A stretch of 64,000 nucleotides of DNA from an uncultured bacterium (lineage in GTDB: Bacteria; SAR324; XYD2-FULL-50-16): contig CBFCZY010000016.1 of the NCBI GenBank assembly GCA_965602905.1, positions 2,280-66,279 of the forward strand, read 5' to 3'. Shown piece after piece: positions 739 to 41,589 of this stretch. Below the pieces are notes generated by a model. It was given only the letters and a program-made list of their open reading frames with translations, did no database searches and was not told where the DNA came from. A program made the position numbers and the translations under genes. The stretch's first letter is position 1. Every line of letters begins with the position of its first letter.

Positions 739-1089
739 ATGAAAGAACTCGCAAAAATATTTAAATCCCTAAGCGACCCAAATCGACTTCGCATTCTTAA
801 AATGTTAGAGGCCAGACCCCTGTGCAACTGTGAGATCCAAGAGGTTTTGGGTCTGGCAGGCTCTACCGTGTCCAAGCATTTGGCATTACTGCGTGACTCG
901 GGACTTTTGGAAGATGAGCGTAAGGGTAAATGGGTGATCTACAGCCTAGCCACAGACCAGACAGACCTCTACTCACCCCTTCTGCTAGAGGCTGTGAACC
1001 TGTGGCTCAATGATGAGCCCCAAGTGAGTGATGATTTAGCCCAAGTGGAGGCCATGAAAGGCAAATTCTTTTGCGAGACAGGAGAATAG
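739..1089 (+). CDS. arsR: ArsR/SmtB family metalloregulator
   Basis: HTH motif LSDPNRLRILKML and Cys pair PLCNCE in the metal-binding position. It is the first gene of the ars cluster. Confidence 0.8.
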   Translation: MKELAKIFKSLSDPNRLRILKMLEARPLCNCEIQEVLGLAGSTVSKHLALLRDSGLLEDERKGKWVIYSLATDQTDLYSPLLLEAVNLWLNDEPQVSDDLAQVEAMKGKFFCETGE

Positions 1090-2103
1090 ATGTTTCAAAT
1101 ATTTACAGATCTAGCCACAGGGGCTGTCAAATTAATGGGGATCGACCTAGAATCAAAGCTCGGCTCCAGTCTCCATTTTTTCATTGAAGATGTGACCAAA
1201 ATCATGGTCTTGCTGGTGGTGATGATTTACCTCATAGCTATCTTGCGGGCCTCCTTAAATATTGAAAAGGTCAGGGATTTTTTACAAAAAAGACACCCTC
1301 TTTTAGGCTACGCCTTTGGTGCCATTTTTGGGGCGATCACCCCCTTTTGTTCTTGCTCTTCTATTCCTCTATTTTTAGGTTTTACCACAGCACGCATCCC
1401 CGTGGGCATATCCTTAGCCTTTTTGATCACCTCACCGATGATCAATGAAGTTGCCATTGTGTTACTCGGTAGTTTGCTCGGTTTTCGTTTTACCTTGGTT
1501 TATGTGACCGTGGGCTTGATAGTGGGCATGGCGTCAGGTGCCTTACTGGATTTTTTCAAGGCGGAGCGTTATCTAAAACCCTTTTTAAAAGACGCCCTAA
1601 AAGAACAGGAAAATGCAGCAGCGGGCGGCACAGCCGAGCCAGAACATCTGGAGGAAAGCCCCTCTTTAACTTTGCTAGATCGGCATGCATACGCCAAAGA
1701 TGAACTTTTTGAAATCATGGGTCGCATTTGGAAATGGGTGTTTATTGGCATAGGCATAGGCGCTATTTTCCATGGCTTTGTCCCTGAATCTTGGGTGACG
1801 AGTAACCTTGGCGCTGGCCAGTGGTGGTCGGTTCCTATTGCGGTTTTTGTTGGTATTCCCCTTTATTCAAATGCCACAGGGATGATTCCCATCATGGAAA
1901 GCCTAATATTAAAGGGGTTGCCTATAGGCACGACCTTGGCCTTTTCTATGAGTGTCGTTGCTGCAAGCTTCCCTGAATTTGTTTTACTCAAGCAGGTAAT
2001 GGAGTGGCGTTTGCTCGCTATGCTCTGGGTTACTTTACTCTGCGCATTTATTTTGGTCGGTTGGTTTTTTAATGCCTTCTGGCCCATCATTGACTCACTC
2101 TAA
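1090..2103 (+). CDS. arsP: ArsP-type organoarsenical efflux permease (DUF318/COG0701 permease)
   Basis: Multi-TM protein carrying the hallmark ITPFCSCSSIPLF motif (TPFCSCSSIP) of ArsP. Its start abuts the arsR stop. Confidence 0.75.
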   Translation: MFQIFTDLATGAVKLMGIDLESKLGSSLHFFIEDVTKIMVLLVVMIYLIAILRASLNIEKVRDFLQKRHPLLGYAFGAIFGAITPFCSCSSIPLFLGFTTARIPVGISLAFLITSPMINEVAIVLLGSLLGFRFTLVYVTVGLIVGMASGALLDFFKAERYLKPFLKDALKEQENAAAGGTAEPEHLEESPSLTLLDRHAYAKDELFEIMGRIWKWVFIGIGIGAIFHGFVPESWVTSNLGAGQWWSVPIAVFVGIPLYSNATGMIPIMESLILKGLPIGTTLAFSMSVVAASFPEFVLLKQVMEWRLLAMLWVTLLCAFILVGWFFNAFWPIIDSL

Positions 2104-2112
2104 AAGGAAAAA

Positions 2113-2343
2113 ATGAAATCAATTAAGGTATTGGGTTCAGGCTGCGCAAAATGCAACCAAACAGCAGACATTATTAAAGAAATTGCCCAACAAGAAGGGG
2201 CGGAAATCGACTTGCAAAAGGTTACAGATCCTATACAAATTATGCAGTATAAGGCCTTGAGCACCCCTGCTGTTGTTGTGGATGAAAAGCTTGTCCATTC
2301 AGGCTCTATCCCCAAAAAAGAGAAAATACTAACTTGGCTATAA
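2113..2343 (+). CDS. thioredoxin-fold small protein (redox-active disulfide protein 2 family)
   Basis: 76 aa with MKSIKVLGSGCAKCNQT and a CxxC motif. This family is commonly found in ars operons. Confidence 0.7.
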   Translation: MKSIKVLGSGCAKCNQTADIIKEIAQQEGAEIDLQKVTDPIQIMQYKALSTPAVVVDEKLVHSGSIPKKEKILTWL

Positions 2344-2350
2344 AAGGAGA

Positions 2351-2692
2351 GTGATCATGGATCAATTAGACACAAAAACCGTCTCAATGATTTCTTTGGC
2401 CGCAGGGATTGCCTGCAACCATCCTGCAATGGGTCAGTGCCAACTGAAACGCTTGCGTGATCTTGGGGTGAGTGAAGATGATTTGAATGCCCTAGTTGAA
2501 ATCGCGAGGCACATTCGAGACGAGGCGCACCAAGAGCTAGATCATAAATTTGACCAAGCGGCGGAGCTTGGGCAAGCAGATGGTTCACAAAAACCAGATG
2601 AGCCCCCAACTCCTCTAAATGTGGCCAGCCCCAAAGAAACCTCAGAAGCCTGTGGCTGCACTCCCACAAAAAGTGGGCAGAGTTGCTGTTAA
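2351..2692 (+). CDS. AhpD/carboxymuconolactone decarboxylase-like small protein with Cys-rich C-terminal tail
   Basis: 113 aa with a conserved AhpD-like core (GIACNHPAMGQCQ) and a tail ending EACGCTPTKSGQSCC. It is embedded between the thioredoxin-like gene and arsC. Confidence 0.55.
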   Translation: MIMDQLDTKTVSMISLAAGIACNHPAMGQCQLKRLRDLGVSEDDLNALVEIARHIRDEAHQELDHKFDQAAELGQADGSQKPDEPPTPLNVASPKETSEACGCTPTKSGQSCC

Positions 2693-2696
2693 AGGA

Positions 2697-3110
2697 ATGA
2701 TGAAAGTACTCATACTTTGCACCGGGAATTCTTGCCGCAGCCAGATGGCAGAGGGAATATTGCAAGCTATAAAAAGCAACTGGCAAGTCTGTTCTGCAGG
2801 TACAAAACCTAGCAACGAGGTTCATCCCTTGGCTGTGATGGTAATGGCCGAGGCGGGTATTGACTTATCCAGTCATAAACCTGAATCAGTTGAAAAGTAT
2901 CTGGATGAAGAGTGGGATCTGATTTGGACTGTCTGTGGAGGAGCAAAGGAAATTTGTCCTGCTTTCTCGGGAATAGTGAAGGAAAGAATTCATATTGGTT
3001 TTGATGACCCTGCAGGATTTACCGGCAGCCCAGAAAATATTCTGGGCGGCTTTAGAAGGGTTCAGGCCCAGATCAACGAAACATGCAGGGAAATTGCGGG
3101 AAAATACTAG
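2697..3110 (+). CDS. arsC: arsenate reductase, LMW-PTP family (thioredoxin-coupled ArsC)
   Basis: MMKVLILCTGNSCRSQMAEG P-loop (CTGNSCRS). The true start is probably the ATG at 2697, preceded by AAGGAA. The track ORF starts at 2619 inside the upstream gene. Confidence 0.8.
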   Translation: MMKVLILCTGNSCRSQMAEGILQAIKSNWQVCSAGTKPSNEVHPLAVMVMAEAGIDLSSHKPESVEKYLDEEWDLIWTVCGGAKEICPAFSGIVKERIHIGFDDPAGFTGSPENILGGFRRVQAQINETCREIAGKY

Positions 3111-3155: not shown

Positions 3156-3599
3156 TCAACTTGGGCTTTTTTCTATTTCTTGGGCAATTTGCAGGGCCGC
3201 ATTTTCTAAGAAGGTACGCTCCTCCTCTGTAAAGGCATGGTCACGCAAGACCATGCAGTTAAAATTGACCGTTCCCCACACTTTCCCCTCTACCATGATG
3301 GGGCTACTGATGTAGGCCTCCAAAGCCATGGAATCGTATAGAGGATGCAGTTTTAAACCTGGGCACCCGTCAATTTCTGTTAGGGCAATGGTTCTTTTTT
3401 CCTTATAAACCTGCCTACAATAGGTTGCTTCCAGTGGGAAGGTTTCCCCAGCAACAAAAACCTCCGCTTCAGAAGAAACGGCAACCAGTTCATAATTTCC
3501 CTCTTCAATATGGCTTACTATCCCCATTGTAAGGCCCAGTTTTTCTCGGCCTTCCTTGAGTAGTTTATTGCTGAAACTATTGAGATCTGCTGAAAACAT
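3156..3599 (-). CDS. stand-alone GAF domain protein
   Basis: 147 aa that reads as a single GAF-like domain with no output domain. Confidence 0.55.
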   Translation of the reverse strand: MFSADLNSFSNKLLKEGREKLGLTMGIVSHIEEGNYELVAVSSEAEVFVAGETFPLEATYCRQVYKEKRTIALTEIDGCPGLKLHPLYDSMALEAYISSPIMVEGKVWGTVNFNCMVLRDHAFTEEERTFLENAALQIAQEIEKSPS

Positions 3600-3889: not shown

Positions 3890-6800
3890 ATGAAACTCAA
3901 GTCCATGAAGTCCAAATCCATCAGGGGAAAAATCAACTTCCTCCTCATTACCATCTCAGCCCTTTTTTTAGGGGCCATGGCTACGGTCGGCTGGAGCTAT
4001 TTCCAGATGTGGAATAACTACAAGGCTGTTGATAACAGCCGAAAACTCCAAATAAAAATTGAGGCCATCAGGAAAAATGTCGATGAGGCTAGGGTAATTG
4101 AAGGCCAGTTTTTACACCAAAAAAAGGATCACCTAAGAGACGAATTTGAAGAGCGATTGGGCAGGGCCTTAAATGATGTTGCTGAACTGATAGAAGACAA
4201 ACAAACCCCTGAAATGTCGCCCAAGCTGGTCGCTGTAGAGGAGGTTTTAGACAGCTACCAAATGGGTTTTGATAAGGTTGCCAGCCTGTATAAAAATGTG
4301 GGCTACAGTCTAATCGAGGGCTACAGAGGCCGCTTAAAGAAAAATAGCGATGAAATTAACGAGGTGATTGTCAAGCTGAAGGATAGGGCCATCATGTGGA
4401 ACTGGATGCAAGTCCAACTGCGAGAAAAAAACTACTTCCAGCTCCAAGGAGCGCCACAAGGTGGGGGGCAGTTAGCGCTTAAAAATCTTTTGAAAAGTGA
4501 GTTGCAGGCTTTAAAGGGGAAGCTCACAAAAAAACTAGGTAAGAATCATAAAATTGTTGAGCCAGCAGGCCTTTTAGATGGTTATATTAGCAATTTTGAT
4601 CGGGTTAGGTTTTACGAAACCGAAGTGCGAGACACAAAGCAAAAATTTGATGCAGAAATGGCGGCCTTGCCCCAACTTTTAACTTCACTGGAAGGGGAAC
4701 ACCGAGCCCAAGAAACCCAAATTTTTGGACAAGTGAAGCTGTTGCTCACGGTTATTACTTGGGCATTGGGGGGCATATTTTTCGGGGTGGTCGCTTACCT
4801 CTTTAAAATTTCTAGATGGGTGGGTGCAGAGATTTCTCAACCTTTAGAATCCATAACTGAAGCCAGTGTGGCCATGGCGCAGGGATGTGTAAATAAACCC
4901 TTAGCCTTTACGACAGATGATGAAATTGGTCGCCTTGCCACCAATTTTAACCTGATGCAGGAATCTGTGAAGGAGAAAATTCAATCCTTAGAGATCTTAA
5001 ATAGTCTCTCTGAAAAAATGATGGGCTTGAGCAAAAATCGTGAGATTTTAGAATTATCCCTAGATACCTTGACCGAGAAATTTGCCTCAAAATTTGATGT
5101 CAAATTCGGGTTTGCTTATCTTTACAATTCAAAAGGCCAGTTGCGCCTGAAAGGCAAAAGGGATGGTGGGCTGAGTTCGAGGCTACCCTTACAACTTGCA
5201 GAGCCAGTGGGCTTTGTTGCAGATGCCGTTGAGTCAGACCAAGCCTTGGTTCTTAAGTCTGATTTTAAACACCACGAAGACTTTTATTTTTTAAACGACC
5301 AAGTGGTGGTCGCTCTACCGATCCAGATTCAAGGTGAGTCTATTGGGGTCTTGTCTTTGGTAATTGGTTCAAGAGATTTTGTTTTCGACAGTGAAATGAA
5401 ATTTTTGGTCAACACCTTAGGGCGGATAATTTCTGCTAACCTGCAAAATGTCCAGATGATGAAGCAGATCAAAAAGCACAATCAGAGCTTAGAAACAAAG
5501 GTCAAGGCTCGGACTCAAGACGTGATGGAGCTTCTAGATAACGCAGGTCAGGGGTTTTTGGTTTTTAAGAAAGACTATAAAATTATGCCCAGTTATTCTA
5601 AGGTTTGCTTTAATCTTCTCAGTGGACACATGCAAGAGAACACGACAGACCTGACAGGATTAAAGATTACCGAGCTTCTCTTTCAAAAAAGTGATAGAGA
5701 AATGTTTACGGAATTTTTAAACCTGATTTTTGATGACTATAAAAAGAATTCCCACGGCTTTCACTTTTTACCTACAGAGTTAAACGTAGGGGATAAGATT
5801 TTAGAAAGCCGCTTTCAGCCCCTAATGGATGAATCTGGGGAGTTGAAGGTGATGGTGATTTTATCTGATATTACCAAAGAAAAATCCTTGGCTCATGAAA
5901 AATTAATCAAAGAGGAAAATAACCGCCTCTTGGTTCAGGTAGTCTCTGATAAAACAGGAACCCAGATCTTTTTAAGAGAAACAGATAAGCTTTTTTGGTG
6001 GCTCCAAGAAGGCACTGCAACCCAGTTCCAACAAGCATTGGTAATGCGTAGCCTCCACACCTTAAAGGGCAATTGTGCAAGCTTTGGCTTTACTCAAGTT
6101 TCAGCCTTAGCCCATAAAATTGAAAGTAGTATCCAAGAAAAAAATCCTTTTGACTTGGCCGCTTTGGAACGTTTAAGAATCGATTTGCAGGGGCTAGAGG
6201 CCAAGTTTAGGGATAAGGTAGCGGAACTTACAGAGCTGATTCCAGAGTTTTTAAAGGAGTCTGACAAGTTAGAAATTGCCCCACAAAAAATGGAACAGTT
6301 TAAATTGTCACTACTCACAAAAGTGAAAGAAGAGCACAAAGAAATAGTGATAGAAGAATTCACTAGCCTGCTTTACCAACAGGTAAACAAACTCCTAAAG
6401 GGTTACCCCAAAATGGTGCAAGATGTTGCCGACTCTTTGGGCAAAGAGATTGAATTTAGTGTAGAAGGCGGGGAAGTGGAGGCCGACCTAAACAGCCTAA
6501 CCCCCGTATTTTCAAACTTAGGGCATTTGGTGAAAAATGCCATTGACCACGGTATTGAAGAGTATGACACCAGAATCAAACTGGGCAAAAAAGAGGCAGG
6601 GAAATTACAGATCTCTATTTACGAAACAGAGCAAAATCTTATTTTAAAAATCACCGATGATGGCGCTGGAATGGACCCTGAAAAAATTCGCAAGTCAGCC
6701 GTTGCCAAGGGGATTTTAACGGAACAATCTTCTAAAAAATTAAGTGAGAAAGAAATTCTCCCTTTAATTTTCCATTCTGGGTTCACCACCAAAGACTCGG

Positions 6801-6982
6801 TGAGTCATATCTCTGGCAGGGGTGTGGGCATGGATGCTGTGAAAAATGCAGTGGAAGAATGTGGCGGAACCATTGCGATCACAAGCCAATTGGGCAAAGG
6901 CACCATATTTGAGATCCAACTGCCCTTAAGGGTAAGAAGATTTGGGCAGGCCGCTTTCCCTAAAGAAAAGAAACTGGCCTAA
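3890..6982 (+). CDS. membrane sensor kinase with periplasmic loop, HAMP, GAF, HPt and C-terminal HATPase_c (CheA-like phosphotransfer architecture, no HisKA, no CheW domain)
   Basis: Two TM segments flank a roughly 250-aa loop. A HAMP-like segment precedes the GAF region. The HPt-like motif SLHTLKGNCASFGFTQVSALAHKIE is followed by HATPase_c N/G boxes (HLVKNAIDHGIE, DDGAGMD, GRGVGMDAV, GKGTIFEI). Confidence 0.7.
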   Translation: MKLKSMKSKSIRGKINFLLITISALFLGAMATVGWSYFQMWNNYKAVDNSRKLQIKIEAIRKNVDEARVIEGQFLHQKKDHLRDEFEERLGRALNDVAELIEDKQTPEMSPKLVAVEEVLDSYQMGFDKVASLYKNVGYSLIEGYRGRLKKNSDEINEVIVKLKDRAIMWNWMQVQLREKNYFQLQGAPQGGGQLALKNLLKSELQALKGKLTKKLGKNHKIVEPAGLLDGYISNFDRVRFYETEVRDTKQKFDAEMAALPQLLTSLEGEHRAQETQIFGQVKLLLTVITWALGGIFFGVVAYLFKISRWVGAEISQPLESITEASVAMAQGCVNKPLAFTTDDEIGRLATNFNLMQESVKEKIQSLEILNSLSEKMMGLSKNREILELSLDTLTEKFASKFDVKFGFAYLYNSKGQLRLKGKRDGGLSSRLPLQLAEPVGFVADAVESDQALVLKSDFKHHEDFYFLNDQVVVALPIQIQGESIGVLSLVIGSRDFVFDSEMKFLVNTLGRIISANLQNVQMMKQIKKHNQSLETKVKARTQDVMELLDNAGQGFLVFKKDYKIMPSYSKVCFNLLSGHMQENTTDLTGLKITELLFQKSDREMFTEFLNLIFDDYKKNSHGFHFLPTELNVGDKILESRFQPLMDESGELKVMVILSDITKEKSLAHEKLIKEENNRLLVQVVSDKTGTQIFLRETDKLFWWLQEGTATQFQQALVMRSLHTLKGNCASFGFTQVSALAHKIESSIQEKNPFDLAALERLRIDLQGLEAKFRDKVAELTELIPEFLKESDKLEIAPQKMEQFKLSLLTKVKEEHKEIVIEEFTSLLYQQVNKLLKGYPKMVQDVADSLGKEIEFSVEGGEVEADLNSLTPVFSNLGHLVKNAIDHGIEEYDTRIKLGKKEAGKLQISIYETEQNLILKITDDGAGMDPEKIRKSAVAKGILTEQSSKKLSEKEILPLIFHSGFTTKDSVSHISGRGVGMDAVKNAVEECGGTIAITSQLGKGTIFEIQLPLRVRRFGQAAFPKEKKLA

Positions 6983-8819: not shown

Positions 8820-9131
8820 ATGAAACGAATGATGTCCCTTATTTTATGCCTCTTTTTTATGAGTCCCGTAGTTGGCTACTCTCAACCCAGTGGTAAGGCT
8901 CTTTTTAAAGATCTAGGTTGCGCCAACTGTCACGATGCAAATAGACAAAAAAAGCTGGGCCCTTTTCCCGTTATCAAGCTTCAGACGGCCAAGGAAATTG
9001 AAAAGGTTTTAGCTATCTATAAAGCGGGGAAACAACGTGGACCCATGTCTAAAGTGATGAGTGGAAACACAAATATTCAGAGGCTTACCAAGGCGGATAT
9101 GGCGGCACTGGCTAAGTTTTTAACCAAATAA
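8820..9131 (+). CDS. small periplasmic c-type cytochrome
   Basis: Signal peptide and a single CANCHD heme-binding motif, 103 aa. AGGAGAAAAA RBS upstream. Confidence 0.7.
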   Translation: MKRMMSLILCLFFMSPVVGYSQPSGKALFKDLGCANCHDANRQKKLGPFPVIKLQTAKEIEKVLAIYKAGKQRGPMSKVMSGNTNIQRLTKADMAALAKFLTK

Positions 9132-9252: not shown

Positions 9253-11856
9253 TTAGTTGGTCTTTAGTCGCTCTAAAACCTCTTTGATTCTTATGACTAA
9301 AGCCAACCGCAAGATGGGCTTAGGGAGATAATCATCCATGCCGCTTTCAAGGCATGCGGCTTTATCATCATTAAAGGCATTGGCCGTTACGGCAATAATA
9401 GGGATGTGCCCGCCTTCACTGGCTTCCTTTTCTCGGATTAAACGAGTGGCCTTGAGGCCGTCCATCTTGGGCATCCTGATGTCCATTAAGATCAAATCAA
9501 AAGAATCTGTTTCGAGCTTCTCTAGTACCTCCACTCCATTTTGAGCGAGCACCATGGTCGCCTTTAATTTATTCAGGATACTTTTCATTAAAACCTGATT
9601 CACCCTTGTGTCTTCAGCGACTAAAATTTTCAGCCCTGCTAAATCAGGTGAATCATTGGTGTCAGGTTGTATTTTGGGGGGACTTTGCTCCGCCACGATC
9701 AAGGGGATCTCAACAAAAAACTTACTCCCTTGGCCTAACTGGCTGGTTACCCAGATTTCCCCATGCATCAAGTTAACCAGTTTTTTGCAAATTGCTAGGC
9801 CTAAACCTGTGCCTCCAAAGTGTTTTGTCGTGGTTGCATCAGCTTGTGTAAAACGGTCGAAAATATTTTCAATGGCCTGCTCGCTTATACCAATACCGCT
9901 GTCTGCAATGCAAAACTGTAAGGTGGCCTCTCCAGCTGTGGTGCTACCTTTTTTCACAGAAAGCTCTACAGAGCCCTCTTTGGTAAACTTTAAAGAATTG
10001 CTTAGAAGGTTGATCAGAATTTGGCGAATTCGCAGACTGTCACCGATATAATTATTTGGCAGGTCCTCTTCTAAAGTAACGAAAAAGTTTACATTTCTAA
10101 GCTTGAATTGCGTAAAAAATAGGTCTTTTTTTGAATCTAAGAGCTTATTTAGTTCAAAGGGTTCTTTATAGATCTCTAACTGGCCAGCTTCAATTTTTGA
10201 GTAGTCTAAAATATCATTGATCAACTGCAACAGGGAATTGGAAGAATCCACAACGATTTCTAAAAAGCGCCGTTGTTCTTGGTTGAGTTCTGAGTTTAAA
10301 ACTAGATCAGTCATCCCGATGATAGCATTCATTGGCGTGCGGATCTCATGGCTCATATTAGCGAGGAAGGCACTTTTCGCATGGTCGGCAGACCTCGCCT
10401 TTTCTTCGGCCTCTTTGATGTGGGTCACATCCGTTATGGTGCCTGAAAACTGCGCAACTTCGCCCTTTTGGCCACGAGCCATAACCTTTCCACGAGCCAT
10501 TACATAAAGGTAGTGACCTTCATGATGTAGCAGGCGGTGGGTGCATTGAAAATAGTCTGTATCGCCTCTTAGATGCTCTTGAAACTGCTTGTCGAACCAA
10601 GGTTTATCGTCTTCATGTATGCGGTCAGTCCAGCAGGCAATGGTATGCTGGTGTTTGATGTGGCTCAGGCCTAAAAGGTGTAACCAGCGTTCGTCTAAGA
10701 TTAATTTTTTGTCCATTGGGTGCCAGTCCCATAGGCCATGAGCTGTTCCCTCTAAAATTAAGTTGATCCGTTCCCCCGCTTCACGGAGGATTTCAGACTT
10801 TTCCCCTCGTTGCTGTTCCATTTTAAAGTAGAAAAAGAAACCAAAGGCCGTGACCAAAGAAAAGCCTAACCATAAGAAGATTAAACTTTGCGCAAATTCC
10901 CCTAGGTAATCATCCTTGCGAAAGCTGATCACGTAGGCGACTTGTTCCCCTAAGACATTCATCACAGGCAGAAAGACCAAAAGGTAATTTTGGCCCTTGA
11001 CCTTTACCGTTTCTGCAAAGGCCTCACCGCCATTTAGCCGTACCTGAATACTAGGGGCGATTGCCGCTTTAACCTCTTCAAAGCCTGTTGCAGCAAAGGA
11101 GCTTGTTTCGCCAAGAAAGGCAGAGTGAGCAATATTTTCCTCTAGGTACAGTGGGTTTAAGGGCGAGGTTTTATAGTTTGATTTTTCATCAAAAAACACT
11201 TTTTTTGAGATGACCTTTTTTTGTAAAATAAAGTCAAATCGAGTGTCGCTAGTTACGTTGAGTTTGGCTTTTAGCGCGTCAAAAGACATGCTGGTTTCCA
11301 CAGAACCAATATGGTTTTTTTTGTAAAAAAGAGGGAAAACGTAGCGAAAACCGTTATAGATTCTTCCCTCTTCAAAACCTGAAACATAACGCTGTTGGGT
11401 ATTGGCGAGATTTACACTGGCACGAACAGACATTAAATTATCCCCAAATTTACCAGGCCTGTGAAAGCGTAAAAAACTATCCCCGTTGGGCAAGTGGAAA
11501 TGGAGTTGGCGGATGCCAAATTTTTTAATTTCGGTGTATTCTAAGTGCAGCTCGTTCCAGAGTTTTGTCCTTATCGCAGCCTTATGCGCAAGGTCGCCAT
11601 CCTTGGCTGTAGAGATAATTTCTAGCACCTTGGGGTTATCTACAACATGGTGATAAAACACCTTAGCCAAAACTTCACTGGAATAAAAAGCCTGCTGGTA
11701 AACACGGTTGAGCTGTTTTATTTCTTGAGTGAAGTAGATACTGCGGCTTTCTTTCCAGTAGTGAAGCAGTGGGCCTATGAACAGGAATTGTAAAATAAAG
11801 AAGGCTCCAAGAAGCCCCAGAAAAGTGTTCTTTGTTTGTATTTTTTTCATGATCAT
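9253..11856 (-). CDS. hybrid sensor histidine kinase/response regulator with periplasmic Cache-like sensor, PAS, HisKA, HATPase_c, REC
   Basis: N-terminal TM, a roughly 280-aa periplasmic region, a second TM and a PAS-like segment. H-box [16 protein letters not shown]. HATPase_c motifs ([23 protein letters not shown]). C-terminal receiver ([11 protein letters not shown]...[11 protein letters not shown]). Confidence 0.85.
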
Positions 11857-12193: not shown

Positions 12194-13972
12194 ATGTTAA
12201 AAAAGGTACAGCTGATGATACAAGATTTAGAGCAAAAAGAGAAAATGGATTGGGTCCAGAGTTTTGAGCAGCTTCAAATTCTATTCAAGCCCATTGTAAA
12301 TACCCAAAGTGGTAAAATACATGCTGTAGAGTCCTCCATTGGTTCCATCTCAAAATTGGGGTTTTACAGCAGAAAAGAGCTTTTTTGCTTTGCTGAAGAA
12401 GAAGGCTATACAAAGGACCTTCACCATTGCCTGTTAAAAAAATCACTTAAAGGATTTAGCTCTCTCCACCCTGCCGGTGAACTAAAGCTATTTTACCCCT
12501 TAACCCTAGGTTTGGACGAAAGTAGCTGGCATGATTCTGTACAAGAGTTGGCCCAAGAATATAAAATTAAACTGCCAAATATTTGCATGGTCGCTGAAAG
12601 TGAAGAGTTAATCATAGACCCCTCCACGGTAAACCAATCGGGAATTTGTATCAGTGGTGAAGTGGGTTATTTTTCTAATTTTTTTGAAAAAGAACCTAAT
12701 TTTCAATATTTCCGCCTTACTCGAAACCTGTATATTCCAGCGCAAAAAAACCGAAAAAAACGTTTTTTTATGCAAAAACTTGTAGAAAATTGTGGCTACT
12801 TTGGGGTCTCGCTACTGGCTGTAGATGTGGAAACTAAGGGCGAAGCATTATTTTTAAAAGACTTAGGTTGTAACTACATTCAAGGTGAGGTTGTATCTCG
12901 GCCCTTAAGGCCAAGTGTAGAGAGGCCCTTAGAATTTGCCTTTATAGAGCAGGTTTATAACCAGTCTAAGCGGGAAAAGGAACAGAGATGCATACATTCT
13001 TTGGCAGAAGAGATTAAAGCTGTAGAGGCCATATCTGTAACTACCCCCGTTAGTGAGGTTTTGTCGAAGTTCCAGGCCCAAGAAGAGGTTAGCTTCTTTC
13101 CTGTTGTAAACGAAATTGGTGAGCCTCTAGGTTTGATTCGTGACCGAGAACTGAAAGCTTACGTCTATTCTCCCTTTGGTCACCAACTTTTAAAAAATAG
13201 AGGGATTGGCCTCGGGCTTGATGGCTTTATTACTCAGTGCCCTAAGGTAAACACCAACGAGAAGATTGAAGACATTTTAAATATCTTCGCTAATCAAAAT
13301 TGTGAAGATGGCATTTTAATTGTAGAAAATCAAAAGTACCGAGGTATGCTCAACGCCAATTCTTTGGTCCGCCTGATCAATGAAAAAAATCTCTTCCAAG
13401 CAAGGGATCAAAATCCCTTAAGTAAGCTTCCTGGGAATCAAGTGATCAACAACTATATTCAAAAGGTGCTTCAAGATAATTCTGAAACCAGTTATTTAAT
13501 CTATTTCGATTTTGATAATTTTAAACCCTTCAATGACTACTATGGCTTTCGCAAAGGCGACCGAGCTATTTTGCTTTTTGCGGAACTGATGCAGAAATTT
13601 ATTGCTTCAAGCGGTGGCTTTATAGGGCACATCGGTGGCGACGATTTTTTTGCAGGTTTGACAGGGGATGATTACGAGTCTGTAGCTAAAAAGATCGGCA
13701 AGCTTTTGCTTAAATTTGGCGAGGATGTAAAAAGTTTTTACGATCTTAATGACCGTAAACGAGGGTTCATAAAGGCTCTAGACCGAAATGGGCGGGAGCA
13801 AGATTTTCCTCTTTTGGGCGTTTCAGCGAGCCTGTTGCAGGTCTCACCTGCCAGCGGTTGTAGGTTTGAAGAGGTTGCCGATATCTTTGCCCCTATGAAA
13901 AAGTCTGCGAAAAGTAGCCCCGACCACTATGTTGCCGCTACTTTTTGGAGTCAGCCACAAACAAATCGATAG
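12194..13972 (+). CDS. EAL(degenerate)-CBS pair-GGDEF(GGDDF variant) c-di-GMP signalling protein
   Basis: The N-terminus is EAL-like (FKPIVNTQSGKIHAVESSIG ... VDVETKGEALFLKDLGCNYIQGEVVSRP). A CBS pair lies in the middle. The C-terminus is GGDEF-like (YLIYFDFDNFKPFNDYYGFRKGDRAI ... GHIGGDDFFAGL). Confidence 0.7.
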   Translation: MLKKVQLMIQDLEQKEKMDWVQSFEQLQILFKPIVNTQSGKIHAVESSIGSISKLGFYSRKELFCFAEEEGYTKDLHHCLLKKSLKGFSSLHPAGELKLFYPLTLGLDESSWHDSVQELAQEYKIKLPNICMVAESEELIIDPSTVNQSGICISGEVGYFSNFFEKEPNFQYFRLTRNLYIPAQKNRKKRFFMQKLVENCGYFGVSLLAVDVETKGEALFLKDLGCNYIQGEVVSRPLRPSVERPLEFAFIEQVYNQSKREKEQRCIHSLAEEIKAVEAISVTTPVSEVLSKFQAQEEVSFFPVVNEIGEPLGLIRDRELKAYVYSPFGHQLLKNRGIGLGLDGFITQCPKVNTNEKIEDILNIFANQNCEDGILIVENQKYRGMLNANSLVRLINEKNLFQARDQNPLSKLPGNQVINNYIQKVLQDNSETSYLIYFDFDNFKPFNDYYGFRKGDRAILLFAELMQKFIASSGGFIGHIGGDDFFAGLTGDDYESVAKKIGKLLLKFGEDVKSFYDLNDRKRGFIKALDRNGREQDFPLLGVSASLLQVSPASGCRFEEVADIFAPMKKSAKSSPDHYVAATFWSQPQTNR

Positions 13973-39264: not shown

Positions 39265-41589
39265 TTAGTTGGGACTATGGTAGTTAGTGAGAATTTGGTA
39301 TAACAATTGTGGTTTGACAGGTTTGGCTATATAGCCATTCATCCCACAGGCTAGGCAGGCTACTTTGTCTTCGGCAAAGGCATTGGCTGTCATGGCTACG
39401 ATGGGAATAGCAGGGTTCCTTACCGCATTTACCCCTGCACGGATGGCCTCGGTTGCCTCAAGTCCATTCATAACGGGCATTCTAATATCCATTAAAACCA
39501 GATCAAAGTCTTTTTTCGCTAAGATATCTAAGGCCTCGGCTCCATTTTCTGCAAAGCCCAGCTGAACCCCAACTCGGCTTAGCATCTTTTCAACCAGCAT
39601 TTTACTCAATTTGTTATCGTCTACGACCAACACAGTTAGGCCTGTTAAATCAATATGAGTTGGATCGACTTCTTTTCCTAGATGAGGGTCTTCTGTGGTG
39701 GGTAAAGTCAAAGGGAAACTAAATTGGCTCCCTTGGCCAAGCTGACTCACTAGATCTATTTTGCTACCCATTAGCTCTACTAAACGCTGGGAAATATTAA
39801 GGCCCAGACCTGTGCCGCCATATTTAAAATGAATATCCAAATCCGCTTGGGCAAAGCTTTTAAAAATCTTCTCTTGGGACTCAGTTGCAATGCCAATGCC
39901 TGTATCTATGACGGTAAATAGAAGGGTAACCTGTCCATTTTCTTCCCCTAAAGATTTTACATGCAAATCCACTCCCCCTTGGTGAGTGAATTTTAGAGAG
40001 TTGGAAAGAAGGTTGATCAAAATTTGATTCAGCCTAAGAGCGTCTCCCATTATAAATTGAGGCAGGTCAGGGGTAATGTTTACAGTAAAGCTCAGCCCCT
40101 TTGCATTAAACTCCTTGGCAAATAAGGACTCTAGAGACTTTAAAAAATGAGGTAAGTCAAAGGGGTGTTGGTCTATCTGTAGTTTCCCTGATTCAATTTT
40201 TGCGAGATCTAAGATGTCATTGATCAATTCCAAAAGGATTTGGGAGGATTGCAATACAATTTCTAAATTTTGGGTCTGGTCTTGGTCTAAGGGGCTGTCT
40301 AAGACCAAACTGGTCATGCCCATGATCGAGTTCATAGGGGTGCGTAGATCATGGCTCATTTTCGCTAGAAAATCAGATTTGGCTCTATTGGCGAGTTCAG
40401 CCTCATTTTTGGCCTGCAATAGATCTTTGGTGCGCTCGGTAACCCGTTGTTCTAATTTCTCATTCATTGTCTGCAATTGCGCCTCAATGTGCCTTTGCTC
40501 CTCTAGGCTAATGGACAATTGCTGTTTAGAGTCCTCTAGCCTTTTATAGGCCCTGCTACTGGCAATGGCCATAGCAAGGACAGGCGTGAGACTTAAAATT
40601 AGATTAAGGTAGTGGCTTTGGTGCTCAGGGTGCTGTAAGCCTGCAACCTCTAGTATAGCCAAGGGTTCTTCTTGGTAGGTGAGGGTAACTTGGAAACCCT
40701 TCTTGGTTATCAGATAAGATTTTGGCCAATTTTTAGGTTCATTGCTTGCTTCATTGGTTGCTTTAGGTGGCTTAGTGGTATTGGGCCAACCTTGGTACCA
40801 AAGAGGCGCCCCTTCAGACCAAGCCTGCAAGCTAATTTGCTGGGGGGCGATTAAAGACATGACCAGTTGAATCAATCGTTGGGCCAAGTCCTCTTCAGGT
40901 TGGTACCCCGCTAGACTGGTAAAGAGGTCCATCATCATAGCATATTCGGCTAATTTAACCGCCGATGATTTTTTAGTTTCTTTTAACTTTTTCCCAAGCT
41001 GTTTGTGTGTTCTTTCATCTAAAAGATGTTGAATTTTTAGTTTAAGGAAGCTGGTTCCAAGGGGAATTCGCAAAACAGGGATGTCTAAAAACTCACCAAA
41101 GGCAATTAGTTTTTCTTCAACATTGGGGTAGCAGAGACTATCAAAAAGCACCAAGATGCTGGTTGATTCTTTAAAGAACAATTGTGCCGTTTCTTGGTCG
41201 AAGCCCGTGCGAGAAATGTAATCTTGCCACTCGTCAATCATGCCTGCCGAATAGATATGGGCGCCCTGAGATAAGTAGTATTCACTTAGGCTTTCAGGGG
41301 CTAAGAGGTTGAAACAGTGGCCTGCAATGGAGCAAATTTGCACGTCAGGTTGCAAAAGTGATTCAGGTTTTAACTCGGCAACGCAGGCACTACTAATGAC
41401 AAGCGTATCCCCCTCATGGTCTTGAGCCTGCTCAAAAAGCGACTCTAATTTTTCCCGACCTTTACTAGGCTGGTCGTATTCTAAAGGCAGGCTAATATTT
41501 ACAAGGTCTGGATCTCCTAACTCCTCTAGGACTTGGGTCATTTCTCGTGATAGGTAACCGCAGGTCATAATACGAAGTGGCTCCTCCAT
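39265..41589 (-). CDS. hybrid histidine kinase with roughly 350-aa N-terminal domain of unknown function (possibly DUF1638-like, corrinoid-system associated), HisKA, HATPase_c, REC
   Basis: No TM segments. The N-terminal region is Cys-containing (MTCGY..., [20 protein letters not shown]). Coiled coil, then H-box [16 protein letters not shown], HATPase_c and REC (VLVVDDNKL...[11 protein letters not shown]). Its start abuts the upstream gene stop. Confidence 0.8.

What the first reader, a model, noticed from the sequence alone, without database searches (positions are those of the whole stretch)
3890..6982. 1030-aa membrane sensor combining HAMP and GAF with a CheA-like HPt plus HATPase_c output and no HisKA
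Classical sensor kinases autophosphorylate on a HisKA dimerisation domain. Here the catalytic HATPase_c domain at the C-terminus follows an HPt-like helix carrying the His in SLHTLKGNCASFGF, a CheA P1-type motif. N-terminal to that lie a periplasmic loop, a HAMP domain and a GAF domain. No CheW-like or P2 domains are present. The protein therefore looks like a CheA-type phosphotransfer kinase whose input is a transmembrane HAMP-GAF sensor rather than chemoreceptor arrays. This is an unusual fusion.
Basis: partly seen in the sequence, partly recalled or inferred. Interest (0 to 1): 0.55.

Follow-up and report, generated by a model that had tools for sequence, protein, structure and literature searches.

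The report
CheA-derived sensor kinase without array domains
This SAR324 gene encodes a membrane sensor fused directly to a stripped-down CheA-type kinase core, which looks odd in isolation but belongs to a widespread, little-studied kinase family, apparently the "class III" histidine kinases.

Summary
ORF 3890..6982 (+) encodes a 1030-aa protein: TM1, a 245-aa helical periplasmic domain, TM2, HAMP, GAF, S-helix, a PAS-like domain, an Hpt of CheA P1 type (His723), a short helical hairpin, and a CheA-type P4 ATPase. It has no HisKA, P2, full P3 or P5/CheW domain.

It is not a one-off fusion. The PAS-like–Hpt–hairpin–P4 module recurs in many protein clusters. A strict motif scan found 186 relatives among species-representative genomes from SAR324, Bacillota, Campylobacterales, Desulfovibrionaceae and other groups. 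Their N-terminal sensors are highly variable.

Outside SAR324, the kinase usually sits next to CheX and a CheY-like single-domain receiver, or carries CheX fused to its C-terminus. As I recall it, this matches the "class III histidine kinases" of Adebali et al. 2017; I could not read that paper here.

SAR324 genomes hold several paralogues each, almost all orphans, including this one.

The likely mechanism is that P4 phosphorylates His723, which passes the phosphoryl group to an unlinked CheY-like receiver. The sensor stack provides dimerisation and control in place of chemoreceptor arrays.

Verdict: a new member of a known but uncharacterised kind; moderate-to-low interest.

The parts
3890..6982 (+). 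Whole gene: 1030-aa transmembrane CheA-derived (class-III-like) sensor histidine kinase.
   Evidence: ORF confirmed. Ortholog P0002 is 76% identical over 98% of the length.
3932..4003 (+). TM1 (aa 15-38).
   Evidence: Kyte-Doolittle peak. Part of the long helix 11-77 in the AF2 model. Conserved in P0002.
4004..4738 (+). Periplasmic all-helical sensor domain (aa 39-283). About 7 helices, possibly HBM-like; ligand unknown.
   Evidence: AF2 model helices 11-77, 80-102, 110-137, 144-163, 166-185, 193-216 and 223-257. Only a weak Pfam HBM hit, E=0.32.
4739..4804 (+). TM2 (aa 284-305).
   Evidence: Kyte-Doolittle peak. Continuous helix 260-330 running into HAMP.
4820..4972 (+). HAMP domain (aa 311-361).
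   Evidence: Pfam PF00672, 37.1 bits against a cut-off of 25.
5042..5443 (+). GAF domain (aa 385-518).
   Evidence: Pfam GAF_2, 27.5 bits, just under the 28.6 cut-off. AF2 model plus Foldseek hits to solved GAF domains with TM 0.7-0.79.
5444..5542 (+). Signalling helix (S-helix, aa 519-551) with the LETKVKART motif, an ERT-type signature. Presumed parallel coiled-coil dimer element.
   Evidence: Helix 501-546 in model 2 and helix 2-21 in model 1. The motif 'N.TLE.KV.ERT' is conserved across the family. Its assignment as an S-helix rests on published knowledge (Anantharaman, Balaji and Aravind 2006).
5549..5869 (+). PAS-like domain (aa 554-660) beginning with the family signature LLDNAGQGF. Always precedes the Hpt in full-length family members.
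   Evidence: AF2 beta-alpha-beta pattern with pLDDT above 90. Weak Pfam PAS_9 hit, E=0.032. Conserved in A1/A2. The motif was used to recover 186 relatives.
5873..6238 (+). Hpt domain of CheA P1 type (aa 662-783). The phospho-acceptor His723 is the codon at 6056-6058. K726, H742 and E745 correspond to CheA K51, H67 and E70.
   Evidence: Pfam Hpt, 38 bits. Five-helix bundle in the model. H, K, G and E are invariant and the second H is at least 90% conserved across 23 family members, with CheA spacing (positions).
6281..6370 (+). Short helical hairpin (aa 798-811 and 814-827) at the position of CheA P3. Probably a truncated P3 remnant.
   Evidence: AF2 helices 268-281 and 284-297. The P4-anchored profile alignment puts both arms on the P4-proximal parts of P3, with about 28 columns missing at the tip. 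Linker alone against P3 is not significant, probability 24%. No Pfam H-kinase_dim hit.
6392..6928 (+). CheA-type P4 ATP-binding kinase domain (aa 835-1013) with intact N box (HLVKNAIDHGIE), G1 (DDGAGMD) and G2 (SGRGVGMD).
   Evidence: PDB CheA P4 entries 1i5d/1i58 at E=5e-43. Foldseek TM 0.87-0.94 to P4 structures. NCBIfam CheA equivalogs match here only. Motif positions; invariant columns.

Best explanation
The gene encodes a transmembrane sensor histidine kinase whose transmitter is a cut-down CheA. It has a P1-type Hpt domain carrying the phospho-acceptor His723, a vestigial P3 hairpin and a P4 ATPase. It lacks P2 and P5.

Shown by the analyses:
- The domain order.
- The CheA ancestry of P1 and P4.
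- Intact ATP-binding boxes and the P1 catalytic tetrad.
- The absence of DHp and CheW domains.
- Membership of a large family that shares the PAS-like-Hpt-hairpin-P4 module.

Inferred mechanism:
1. A periplasmic signal acts on the helical sensor domain and passes through TM2, HAMP, GAF and the S-helix. These elements are obligate or habitual parallel dimers, so they supply the dimerisation that P3 gives in CheA.
2. The signal reaches the PAS-like domain, which gates access of P1 to the P4 active site.
3. P4 transfers the gamma-phosphate of ATP to His723, either in cis or in trans within the dimer.
4. His723 passes the phosphoryl group to a CheY-like single-domain receiver.

In relatives from other phyla, that receiver and a CheX phosphatase are encoded next to the kinase or fused to it. 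In SAR324 the kinases are orphans, so the partner is encoded elsewhere and several paralogues may share it.

The protein therefore senses directly, without chemoreceptor arrays, CheW or methylation-based adaptation.
For: - Architecture.
- P1 catalytic residues H723, K726, H742 and E745 lie at CheA spacing and are invariant or nearly invariant in the family.
- P4 N, G1 and G2 boxes are invariant.
- About 40 of the best 150 cluster representatives in an exhaustive search align over the whole module and end at the C-terminus.
- About 100 of the top 120 profile hits cover 93-97% of the module, carry Hpt and/or HATPase_c only, never PF02895 or PF01584, and have diverse N-terminal sensors.
- 186 relatives were found among GTDB species representatives.
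- The module ends 0-28 aa before the C-terminus in every locus unless CheX is fused.
- Neighbourhoods in other phyla: 36 of 46 have a CheX gene, a fused CheX and/or a small REC adjacent. In the 32 loci closest to this protein, 30 have neither.
- Canonical CheA P4 domains (93 of 93 true CheAs) form one pure clade apart from all family P4 domains in an NJ tree.
- No HisKA or DHp by Pfam, and none in the structure model.
Against: - No biochemical data exist for any family member that I could find.
- No receiver or CheX gene lies in the 64-kb window or next to the ortholog, so the output is unknown for this protein.
- Isolated CheA monomers are poorly active (published knowledge), so kinase activity without a full P3 is an assumption.
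- Dimerisation through HAMP and the S-helix is inferred, not modelled.
- The inter-domain geometry of the model is only moderately confident (pTM 0.66).
- The hairpin-P3 relation rests on a P4-anchored alignment with low-to-moderate column confidence. The hairpin alone is not significantly P3-like.
Confidence: 0.75

Rival explanations
1. It is an ordinary class I sensor kinase with a hidden or divergent DHp (HisKA-like) domain that is the true autophosphorylation site. The Hpt would then be an extra phosphorelay module.
For: - TM-HAMP-GAF inputs are typical of class I kinases.
- A His (H530) sits in the S-helix motif 'KKHNQSLE' just upstream of the PAS-like domain.
- Foldseek also lists PAS-DHp-CA kinases as distant whole-chain matches (ranks 33-42).
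Against: - No HisKA-family hit at E<=1.
- The S-helix His is replaced by N or Y, or is absent, in family members P0133, P0154, P0156 and P0134.
- The AF2 model has no DHp hairpin adjoining the ATPase. The Foldseek matches to class I kinases have rmsd 25-29 A.
- The ATPase is CheA-type, not class I: E=5e-43 to CheA P4 against 9e-8 for the best class I kinase.
- There is no REC domain that a phosphorelay would need.
Confidence: 0.04
2. It is a truncated or mis-assembled canonical CheA. On this reading the P5/CheW domain, and perhaps P2 and P3, were lost through a frameshift, assembly break or pseudogenisation, so the architecture is an artefact.
For: JGI and NCBI pipelines label some relatives 'chemotaxis sensor kinase CheA'.
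Against: - The stop codon position is conserved. The ortholog ends at the same point, and all 78 family genes in loci L004-L083 end 0-28 aa after P4 or continue into CheX, never into CheW.
- Only 240 bp follow the stop before an ABC-F gene.
- The distance from His723 to the C-terminus is constant at about 295-312 aa across the family.
- Family P4 domains separate cleanly from canonical CheA P4 domains.
Confidence: 0.01
3. It is a kinase-dead or phosphatase-biased regulator. On this reading the Hpt receives phosphate from another kinase or shuttles it between receivers, and P4 serves only as a nucleotide-binding regulatory domain. The orphan status in SAR324 would reflect loss of the original CheX/CheY pathway.
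For: - 30 of the 32 loci closest to this protein lack any adjacent REC or CheX.
- The full P3 dimerisation domain, needed for efficient CheA autophosphorylation (published knowledge), is missing.
Against: - All ATP-binding boxes and the P1 residues that assist catalysis (K726, H742, E745) are conserved under apparent purifying selection across orphan and non-orphan members.
- Paralogue expansion with diverse sensors fits active signalling better than decay.
Confidence: 0.1

Closest known systems
Class III histidine kinases (HKIII) of Adebali, Petukh, Reznik, Tishkov, Upadhyay and Zhulin, J Bacteriol 2017;199:e00218-17. The reference is confirmed via PMC6501615. The content is recalled from memory because the paper is not held in the library.
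   Same: - N-terminal sensory domains fused to an Hpt plus a CheA-derived kinase domain.
- No proper dimerisation domain and no CheW domain.
- Relatives of the window protein are encoded with CheX and a single-domain receiver, the hallmark recalled for HKIII systems.
   Different: - This SAR324 gene and nearly all of its closest paralogues are orphans without CheX or CheY neighbours.
- A chemoreceptor gene lies within 6 kb in only 1 of the fetched loci.
- The family found here spans many phyla, whereas the paper reported a narrow phyletic distribution (as recalled).
- A universal PAS-like domain and a probable P3 remnant are seen here; I do not recall these being described.
- Identity of the two families could not be checked against the paper's own sequence lists.
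Canonical chemotaxis kinase CheA (class II; T. maritima 1B3Q/4XIV, E. coli CheA).
   Same: - P1-type Hpt with the His, Lys, His and Glu residues at identical spacing.
- P4 ATPase 37-42% identical to T. maritima P4, with TM up to 0.94.
- Same P1 to (P3 position) to P4 order.
   Different: - No P2.
- P3 is reduced to a 14+14-residue hairpin.
- No P5, so no coupling to CheW or receptor arrays.
- Its own transmembrane sensor, HAMP, GAF, S-helix and PAS-like domains lie N-terminal to P1.
Class I HAMP/GAF-containing sensor kinases (HisKA + HATPase_c), for example the neighbouring hybrid kinase at 9253..11856.
   Same: Membrane topology, HAMP and GAF input logic, the S-helix connector, and presumably a homodimer.
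   Different: The phospho-acceptor His sits on a monomeric Hpt bundle rather than a DHp. The ATPase belongs to the CheA lineage.
Unorthodox or hybrid kinases with a C-terminal Hpt (ArcB, BarA, TorS).
   Same: They contain both an Hpt and a HATPase_c domain.
   Different: In those proteins the order is HisKA-HATPase-REC-Hpt, and the Hpt receives phosphate from a REC. Here the Hpt precedes the ATPase, has CheA P1 catalytic residues, and no HisKA or REC is present.

Membership tests
Canonical CheA (class II HK) | P1 Hpt domain with phospho-acceptor His and assisting Lys, His and Glu (E. coli H48, K51, H67, E70). | tested here: met
   H723, K726, H742 and E745 have identical spacing. They are invariant or at least 90% conserved in A1. 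Pfam Hpt scores 38 bits.
Canonical CheA (class II HK) | P3 dimerisation domain (Pfam H-kinase_dim PF02895; two helices of roughly 25-30 residues). | tested here: not met
   No PF02895 hit at E<=1, and none in the precomputed Pfam annotations of about 100 family members. Linker profile against P3 profile gives probability 24%. AF2 shows only 14+14-residue helices. The P4-anchored alignment suggests a remnant lacking about 28 columns.
Canonical CheA (class II HK) | P4 CheA-type ATP-binding domain. | tested here: met
   PDB CheA P4 at E=5e-43. Foldseek TM 0.87-0.94. NCBIfam CheA equivalogs match aa 830-1015.
Canonical CheA (class II HK) | P5 CheW-like receptor-coupling domain (PF01584). | tested here: not met
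   The protein ends 17 aa after P4. There is no CheW hit. The downstream 240 bp are followed by an ABC-F gene. The C-terminal end is conserved across the family.
Canonical CheA (class II HK) | P2 CheY-binding domain between P1 and P3. | tested here: not met
   Only about 50 residues separate the end of the Hpt bundle from P4, and they form a short hairpin. The His-to-C-terminus distance is constant at about 300 aa.
Class I (HisKA-type) sensor histidine kinase | DHp/HisKA domain carrying the phospho-acceptor His directly upstream of HATPase_c. | tested here: not met
   No HisKA-family hit. There is no DHp in the model. The only nearby non-Hpt His (S-helix) is not conserved.
Class III histidine kinase (HKIII, Adebali et al. 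2017; definition recalled from memory) | N-terminal sensory domain(s) fused to the kinase. | tested here: met
   Periplasmic helical domain, HAMP, GAF and PAS-like domains.
Class III histidine kinase (HKIII, Adebali et al. 2017; definition recalled from memory) | Hpt plus CheA-derived kinase domain, without a dimerisation domain. | tested here: met
   Caveat: a short hairpin that may be a P3 vestige is present.
Class III histidine kinase (HKIII, Adebali et al. 2017; definition recalled from memory) | Encoded with a single-domain response regulator and a CheX phosphatase. | tested here: not met
   None in the 64-kb window or at the ortholog's locus, and 30 of the 32 closest loci lack both. The feature is met in relatives from other phyla: 16 have a CheX gene plus a small REC, 13 have CheX fused, and 7 have a small REC only, out of 46.
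Class III histidine kinase (HKIII, Adebali et al. 2017; definition recalled from memory) | Often accompanied by an unorthodox soluble chemoreceptor. | tested here: not met
   An MCP signalling domain lies within 6 kb of the kinase in only 1 fetched locus, L082. The window has one MCP-like ORF 22 kb away.
Class III histidine kinase (HKIII, Adebali et al. 2017; definition recalled from memory) | The genome also carries pilT (type IV pilus motility). | not testable with these tools
   Only a 64-kb window of the genome is available.
Unorthodox/hybrid kinase with phosphorelay Hpt (ArcB/BarA/TorS type) | HisKA-HATPase_c-REC-Hpt order. | tested here: not met
   The Hpt precedes HATPase_c, and there is no HisKA or REC.

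The most novel reading that the evidence does not exclude
SAR324 bacteria have turned the CheA core into a family of 'self-contained receptors'. On this reading, several orphan paralogues per genome, each with a different sensor (HAMP-GAF, CHASE5, 7TMR-DISM, DUF427, PAS), autophosphorylate without P3-mediated dimerisation or receptor arrays. They then converge on one shared, unlinked CheY-like regulator. This would be a many-to-one, array-free, adaptation-free alternative to chemotaxis signalling that has shed even the CheX/CheY operon partners kept in other phyla.
Probability: 0.2. Interest if true: 0.6.

Novelty: new member of a known kind. Interest (0 to 1): 0.3.

Why it matters
CheA is the best-studied bacterial kinase, yet its activity is thought to depend on P3 dimerisation and on P5/CheW coupling to receptor arrays. 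A large natural family keeps only P1 and P4, plus a stub of P3, and is driven directly by fused sensors. That makes it a ready-made test of which CheA features are needed for catalysis and which for regulation.

For this window specifically, the result is mainly corrective. The architecture is real but recurrent, and probably already named (HKIII). The added value is threefold:
- The family-wide PAS-like domain.
- The probable P3 remnant.
- The contrast between CheX/CheY-linked members in other phyla and the expanded orphan paralogues in SAR324, an abundant and largely uncultured marine lineage.

Tried and rejected
- **Hidden DHp or HisKA.** I looked by Pfam at E<=1 and in the AF2 model. None was found.
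- **Linker as a P3 domain.** Linker-only against P3-only profile comparison was not significant: probability 24%, with a poor register. Only the P4-anchored alignment suggests a remnant, so I call it probable, not shown.
- **Partner genes in the window.** phmmer with CheX and CheY-like queries found only the REC domains of three hybrid kinases. There is no chemotaxis cluster around the single MCP-like ORF.
- **Paralogues of the module in the window.** None.
- **Literature.** The HKIII paper is not held by DOI or PMC id. Full-text searches for HKIII or class III kinases returned only one citing paper, which conflates it with Kim and Forst type III. A general CheA search gave nothing relevant.
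- **First genome scan.** The attempt with alignment A3 failed for lack of a conserved stretch. It was redone with A4.
- **Heliomicrobium homolog context.** The look-up of encoding contigs had no record for P0276.
- **Rooted monophyly of the family P4.** With a distant class I outgroup the family is paraphyletic to the CheA clade. I use only the unrooted split, because the root is unreliable.
- **Identity of the periplasmic domain.** Foldseek hits on the N-terminal model were dominated by GAF. The HBM-like assignment remains a weak lead.
Full report
**1. Observation**

The window contains an ATG-initiated ORF at 3890..6982 (+) of 1030 codons.

Pfam finds HAMP (aa 311-361), GAF_2 (385-518; 27.5 bits, just below the 28.6 cut-off), a weak PAS_9 (585-663), Hpt (692-771) and HATPase_c (877-1014). 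Even at E<=1 it finds no HisKA-type, H-kinase_dim or CheW domain.

NCBIfam CheA equivalogs match only aa 830-1015. Solved T. maritima CheA P4 domains match aa 835-1013 at E=5e-43. The best class I kinase in the PDB reaches only 9e-8 over a short stretch.

Two hydrophobic segments, aa 15-38 and 284-305, are the only candidates for membrane spans.

The start at 3890 is supported by the ortholog P0002 (76% identity, a SAR324 cluster MAG), which aligns from its first residue and includes TM1. The database version of this protein, P0001, starts at M40 and would lack TM1.

**2. Anatomy from structure prediction**

The model of aa 531-1030 used a 103-sequence family alignment and has mean pLDDT 91.2 and pTM 0.66. 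In protein numbering it shows:
- a long N-terminal helix, 532-551
- a PAS-like alpha/beta domain, 554-660
- a five-helix Hpt bundle, 662-783, with His723 on the third helix
- two short helices of 14 residues each, 798-811 and 814-827
- the P4 alpha/beta sandwich, about 835-1013

Foldseek against the PDB returns CheA P4 structures with TM 0.87-0.94. The T. maritima P3P4 construct 4XIV is the top hit, with 248 aligned columns and TM 0.71.

The model of aa 1-547 has mean pLDDT 82. It shows:
- TM1 continuing into a seven-helix periplasmic domain
- TM2 continuous with HAMP
- a GAF fold, confirmed by Foldseek at TM 0.7-0.79 to solved GAF domains
- a 45-residue exit helix

That exit helix carries LETKVKART. 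Family members have 'N.TLE.KV.ERT' at this position, which is the ERT signature of the signalling helix (published knowledge: Anantharaman, Balaji and Aravind 2006).

There is no DHp anywhere between aa 520 and 850.

**3. The Hpt is a catalytic P1, and P4 is intact**

In a 23-sequence family alignment, the invariant or nearly invariant Hpt positions are H723, K726, G727, H742 and E745. They are spaced exactly as E. coli CheA H48, K51, G52, H67 and E70, the residues known to assist phosphotransfer from ATP (published knowledge of CheA P1).

The N box (HLVKNAIDHGIE), G1 (DDGAGMD) and G2 (SGRGVGMD) are invariant across 103 sequences.

**4. The segment between Hpt and P4**

A profile of the family linker compared with a profile of P3 from 95 CheA-like proteins (93 of them canonical) is not significant: probability 24%, in a poor register.

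When the comparison is anchored by P4, the alignment runs collinearly into P3. The motif 'i.I...i..l' aligns on CheA 'i.vd...ld.lmnlvgELvi'. The second arm aligns on 'eLQ..vm..Rm.pI..vF'. About 28 template columns at the hairpin tip are missing. Column confidence there is low to moderate.

Together with the 14+14-residue helices in the model, the most economical reading is a truncated P3 remnant. This is probable, not shown.

**5. It is a family, not a one-off**

- **Exhaustive phmmer search.** The query was aa 680-1030, run against 1.84 billion cluster representatives. It gave 40,599 hits, mostly CheA P4. Among the best 150, about 40 align over the whole module in one stretch and end at the protein C-terminus. 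They are 31-40% identical and range from 341 to 1015 aa.
- **Constant spacing.** The His lies a constant 292-312 residues from the C-terminus, and a conserved L[LM]DN[TA]GQGF motif opens the PAS-like domain.
- **Profile search.** About 100 of the top 120 hits cover 93-97% of the module. Their precomputed Pfam content is Hpt and/or HATPase_c, never PF02895 or PF01584. Their N-terminal sensors include DUF427, dCache_3, CHASE4, CHASE8, HAMP, PAS, NMT1-type binding protein, CBS, HNOB, REC, cNMP-binding and CheX.
- **Species-representative genomes.** A scan with the motif plus tblastn confirmation found 186 relatives. The 80 loci retrieved come from SAR324 (2-4 paralogues in six MAGs), Lambdaproteobacteria, Cloacimonadota, Dependentiae, Bacillota (Sporomusa, Desulfosporosinus, Cohnella, Paenibacillus), Desulfovibrionaceae, Campylobacterales, a cyanobacterium, Pseudoduganella, Phenylobacterium, Algicola and Fusobacteriota.
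- **SAR324 paralogues.** Ten of them carry CHASE5-HAMP-GAF, HAMP-GAF, HAMP, 7TMR-DISM, 7TMR-DISM+PAS or DUF427 inputs on the same transmitter. The HAMP-GAF version is itself recurrent.
- **Tree of P4 domains.** In an NJ tree, 93 canonical CheAs form one pure clade apart from all family members. The two exceptions were mislabelled P5-less proteins. The root is unreliable, so only the split is used.

**6. Genomic context**

Pfam-annotated loci gave two clear examples:
- In Arcobacter sp. FWKO B the order is kinase, CheX, a 132-aa REC, then GGDEF.
- In a 2-Mb metagenomic contig the order is kinase, a 135-aa REC, then REC-DnaJ.

I built ad hoc HMMs for REC, CheX and the module and applied them to the six-frame ORFs of all loci.

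| Group | Loci | CheX gene + small REC adjacent | CheX fused (163-177 aa extension) | Small REC adjacent, no CheX | Small REC elsewhere in locus, no CheX | Neither |
|---|---|---|---|---|---|---|
| Other phyla | 46 | 16 | 13 | 7 | 3 | 7 |
| 32 loci closest to the window protein (mostly SAR324) | 32 | 0 | 0 | 0 | 2 | 30 |

- The ortholog's locus has no REC.
- The window has no CheX and no stand-alone REC.
- An MCP gene lies within 6 kb in only one locus.
- The window's neighbours are an ars cluster, a divergent stand-alone GAF protein, an ABC-F ATPase, a cytochrome c, a hybrid kinase and an EAL-CBS-GGDEF protein. Only the cytochrome c and the EAL-CBS-GGDEF genes recur near the ortholog.
- The promoter and terminator scan was uninformative.

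**7. Mechanism**

- **Shown:** a CheA-derived P1 plus P4 with all catalytic residues, no DHp, no P2, no P5, and fused sensors.
- **Inferred, step 1:** ATP-dependent phosphorylation of His723 by P4.
- **Inferred, step 2:** dimerisation and signal input through TM2, HAMP, GAF and the S-helix into the PAS-like domain, which sits directly on P1.
- **Inferred, step 3:** transfer to a CheY-like receiver, with CheX as the phosphatase where one is present.
- **Open:** the receiver for this SAR324 protein is unlinked and unknown. Whether phosphorylation is cis or trans, and whether the hairpin still pairs, also remain open.

**8. Comparison with what is known**

The combination matches my recollection of the class III histidine kinases of Adebali et al. 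(J Bacteriol 2017). That combination is sensor domains, Hpt, a CheA-like kinase, no dimerisation domain, CheX and a single-domain receiver.

I could confirm the reference only through a citing paper. The article itself is not held, so the equation of the two families is a strong lead rather than a test.

Against that definition, this protein meets the architectural criteria. It fails the operon criteria (CheX and receiver adjacent), which its relatives in other phyla meet. It is not a canonical CheA, because P2, P3 and P5 were tested and not met. It is not a class I kinase, because DHp was tested and not met.

**9. Verdict**

I file it as a new member of a known kind.

Points that may be new:
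- the invariant PAS-like domain
- the probable P3 stub
- the breadth of the family
- the orphan paralogue expansion in SAR324

Interest is moderate to low at 0.3. It would rise if the array-free, many-sensors-to-one-regulator reading were demonstrated.

Noticed in passing
window 739-3110 (+): An arsenic-resistance-like cluster lies upstream: ArsR-family HTH (739-1089), ArsP_1 permease (1090-2103), a small CMD-like ORF with a Cys-rich C-terminus (2351-2692), and an LMW-phosphatase-type arsenate reductase (2619-3110).
   Followed up: partly
window 3156-3599 (-): A stand-alone 147-aa GAF-domain protein is transcribed divergently from the kinase, 290 bp upstream. Conservation with the ortholog could not be checked because that contig starts at the kinase gene.
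   Followed up: partly
window 29036-30154 (-): A 372-aa ORF has a partial MCP signalling-domain match at its N-terminus (aa 47-122) and a dCache_1 match at its C-terminus (aa 177-367). This is the reverse of the usual chemoreceptor order, and both matches are partial. Unexplained.
   Followed up: no
window 21405-23381 (+) and 36358-38712 (-): Two 7TMR-DISM sensor kinases show HATPase_c (the second also REC) but no HisKA-family hit at E<=1e-4. The window is generally dense in signalling genes: a hybrid dCache_3 kinase at 9253-11856, EAL-CBS-GGDEF at 12194-13972, and a hybrid kinase at 39265-41589.
   Followed up: no
window 30517-31953 (-): An ORF matches the T6SS Tle1-like phospholipase effector catalytic domain at E=1.5e-55.
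   Followed up: no
L019 1741-7461 and L020 1741-7458 (SAR324 MAGs PL23b_bin.72 and PL25a_bin.53): Giant 1906-1907-aa versions of the same kinase family, each preceded by a 414-aa REC-containing protein. Their long N-terminal regions were not analysed.
   Followed up: no
protein P0124: A 4858-aa protein matched the module in 17 separate stretches, with a CheA-type P4 at its extreme C-terminus (aa 4618-4852). It looks like a giant multi-Hpt protein that ends at P4.
   Followed up: no
L035, L042, L052, L055-L057, L059, L066, L069, L074, L077, L080, L081: In Bacillota (Sporomusa, Desulfosporosinus), Phenylobacterium and Algicola, the CheX phosphatase is fused to the C-terminus of the kinase, directly after P4. 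The gene is usually followed by a 230-500-aa REC-containing protein rather than a single-domain CheY.
   Followed up: partly
window 8820-9131 and 12194-13972; L001 6283-6594 and 9640-11391: The cytochrome c gene and the EAL-CBS-GGDEF gene downstream of the kinase are syntenic between the window and the ortholog's contig. The genes between them differ: ABC-F and a hybrid kinase in the window, LysR, aconitase-like and phosphonate ABC genes in the ortholog.
   Followed up: partly
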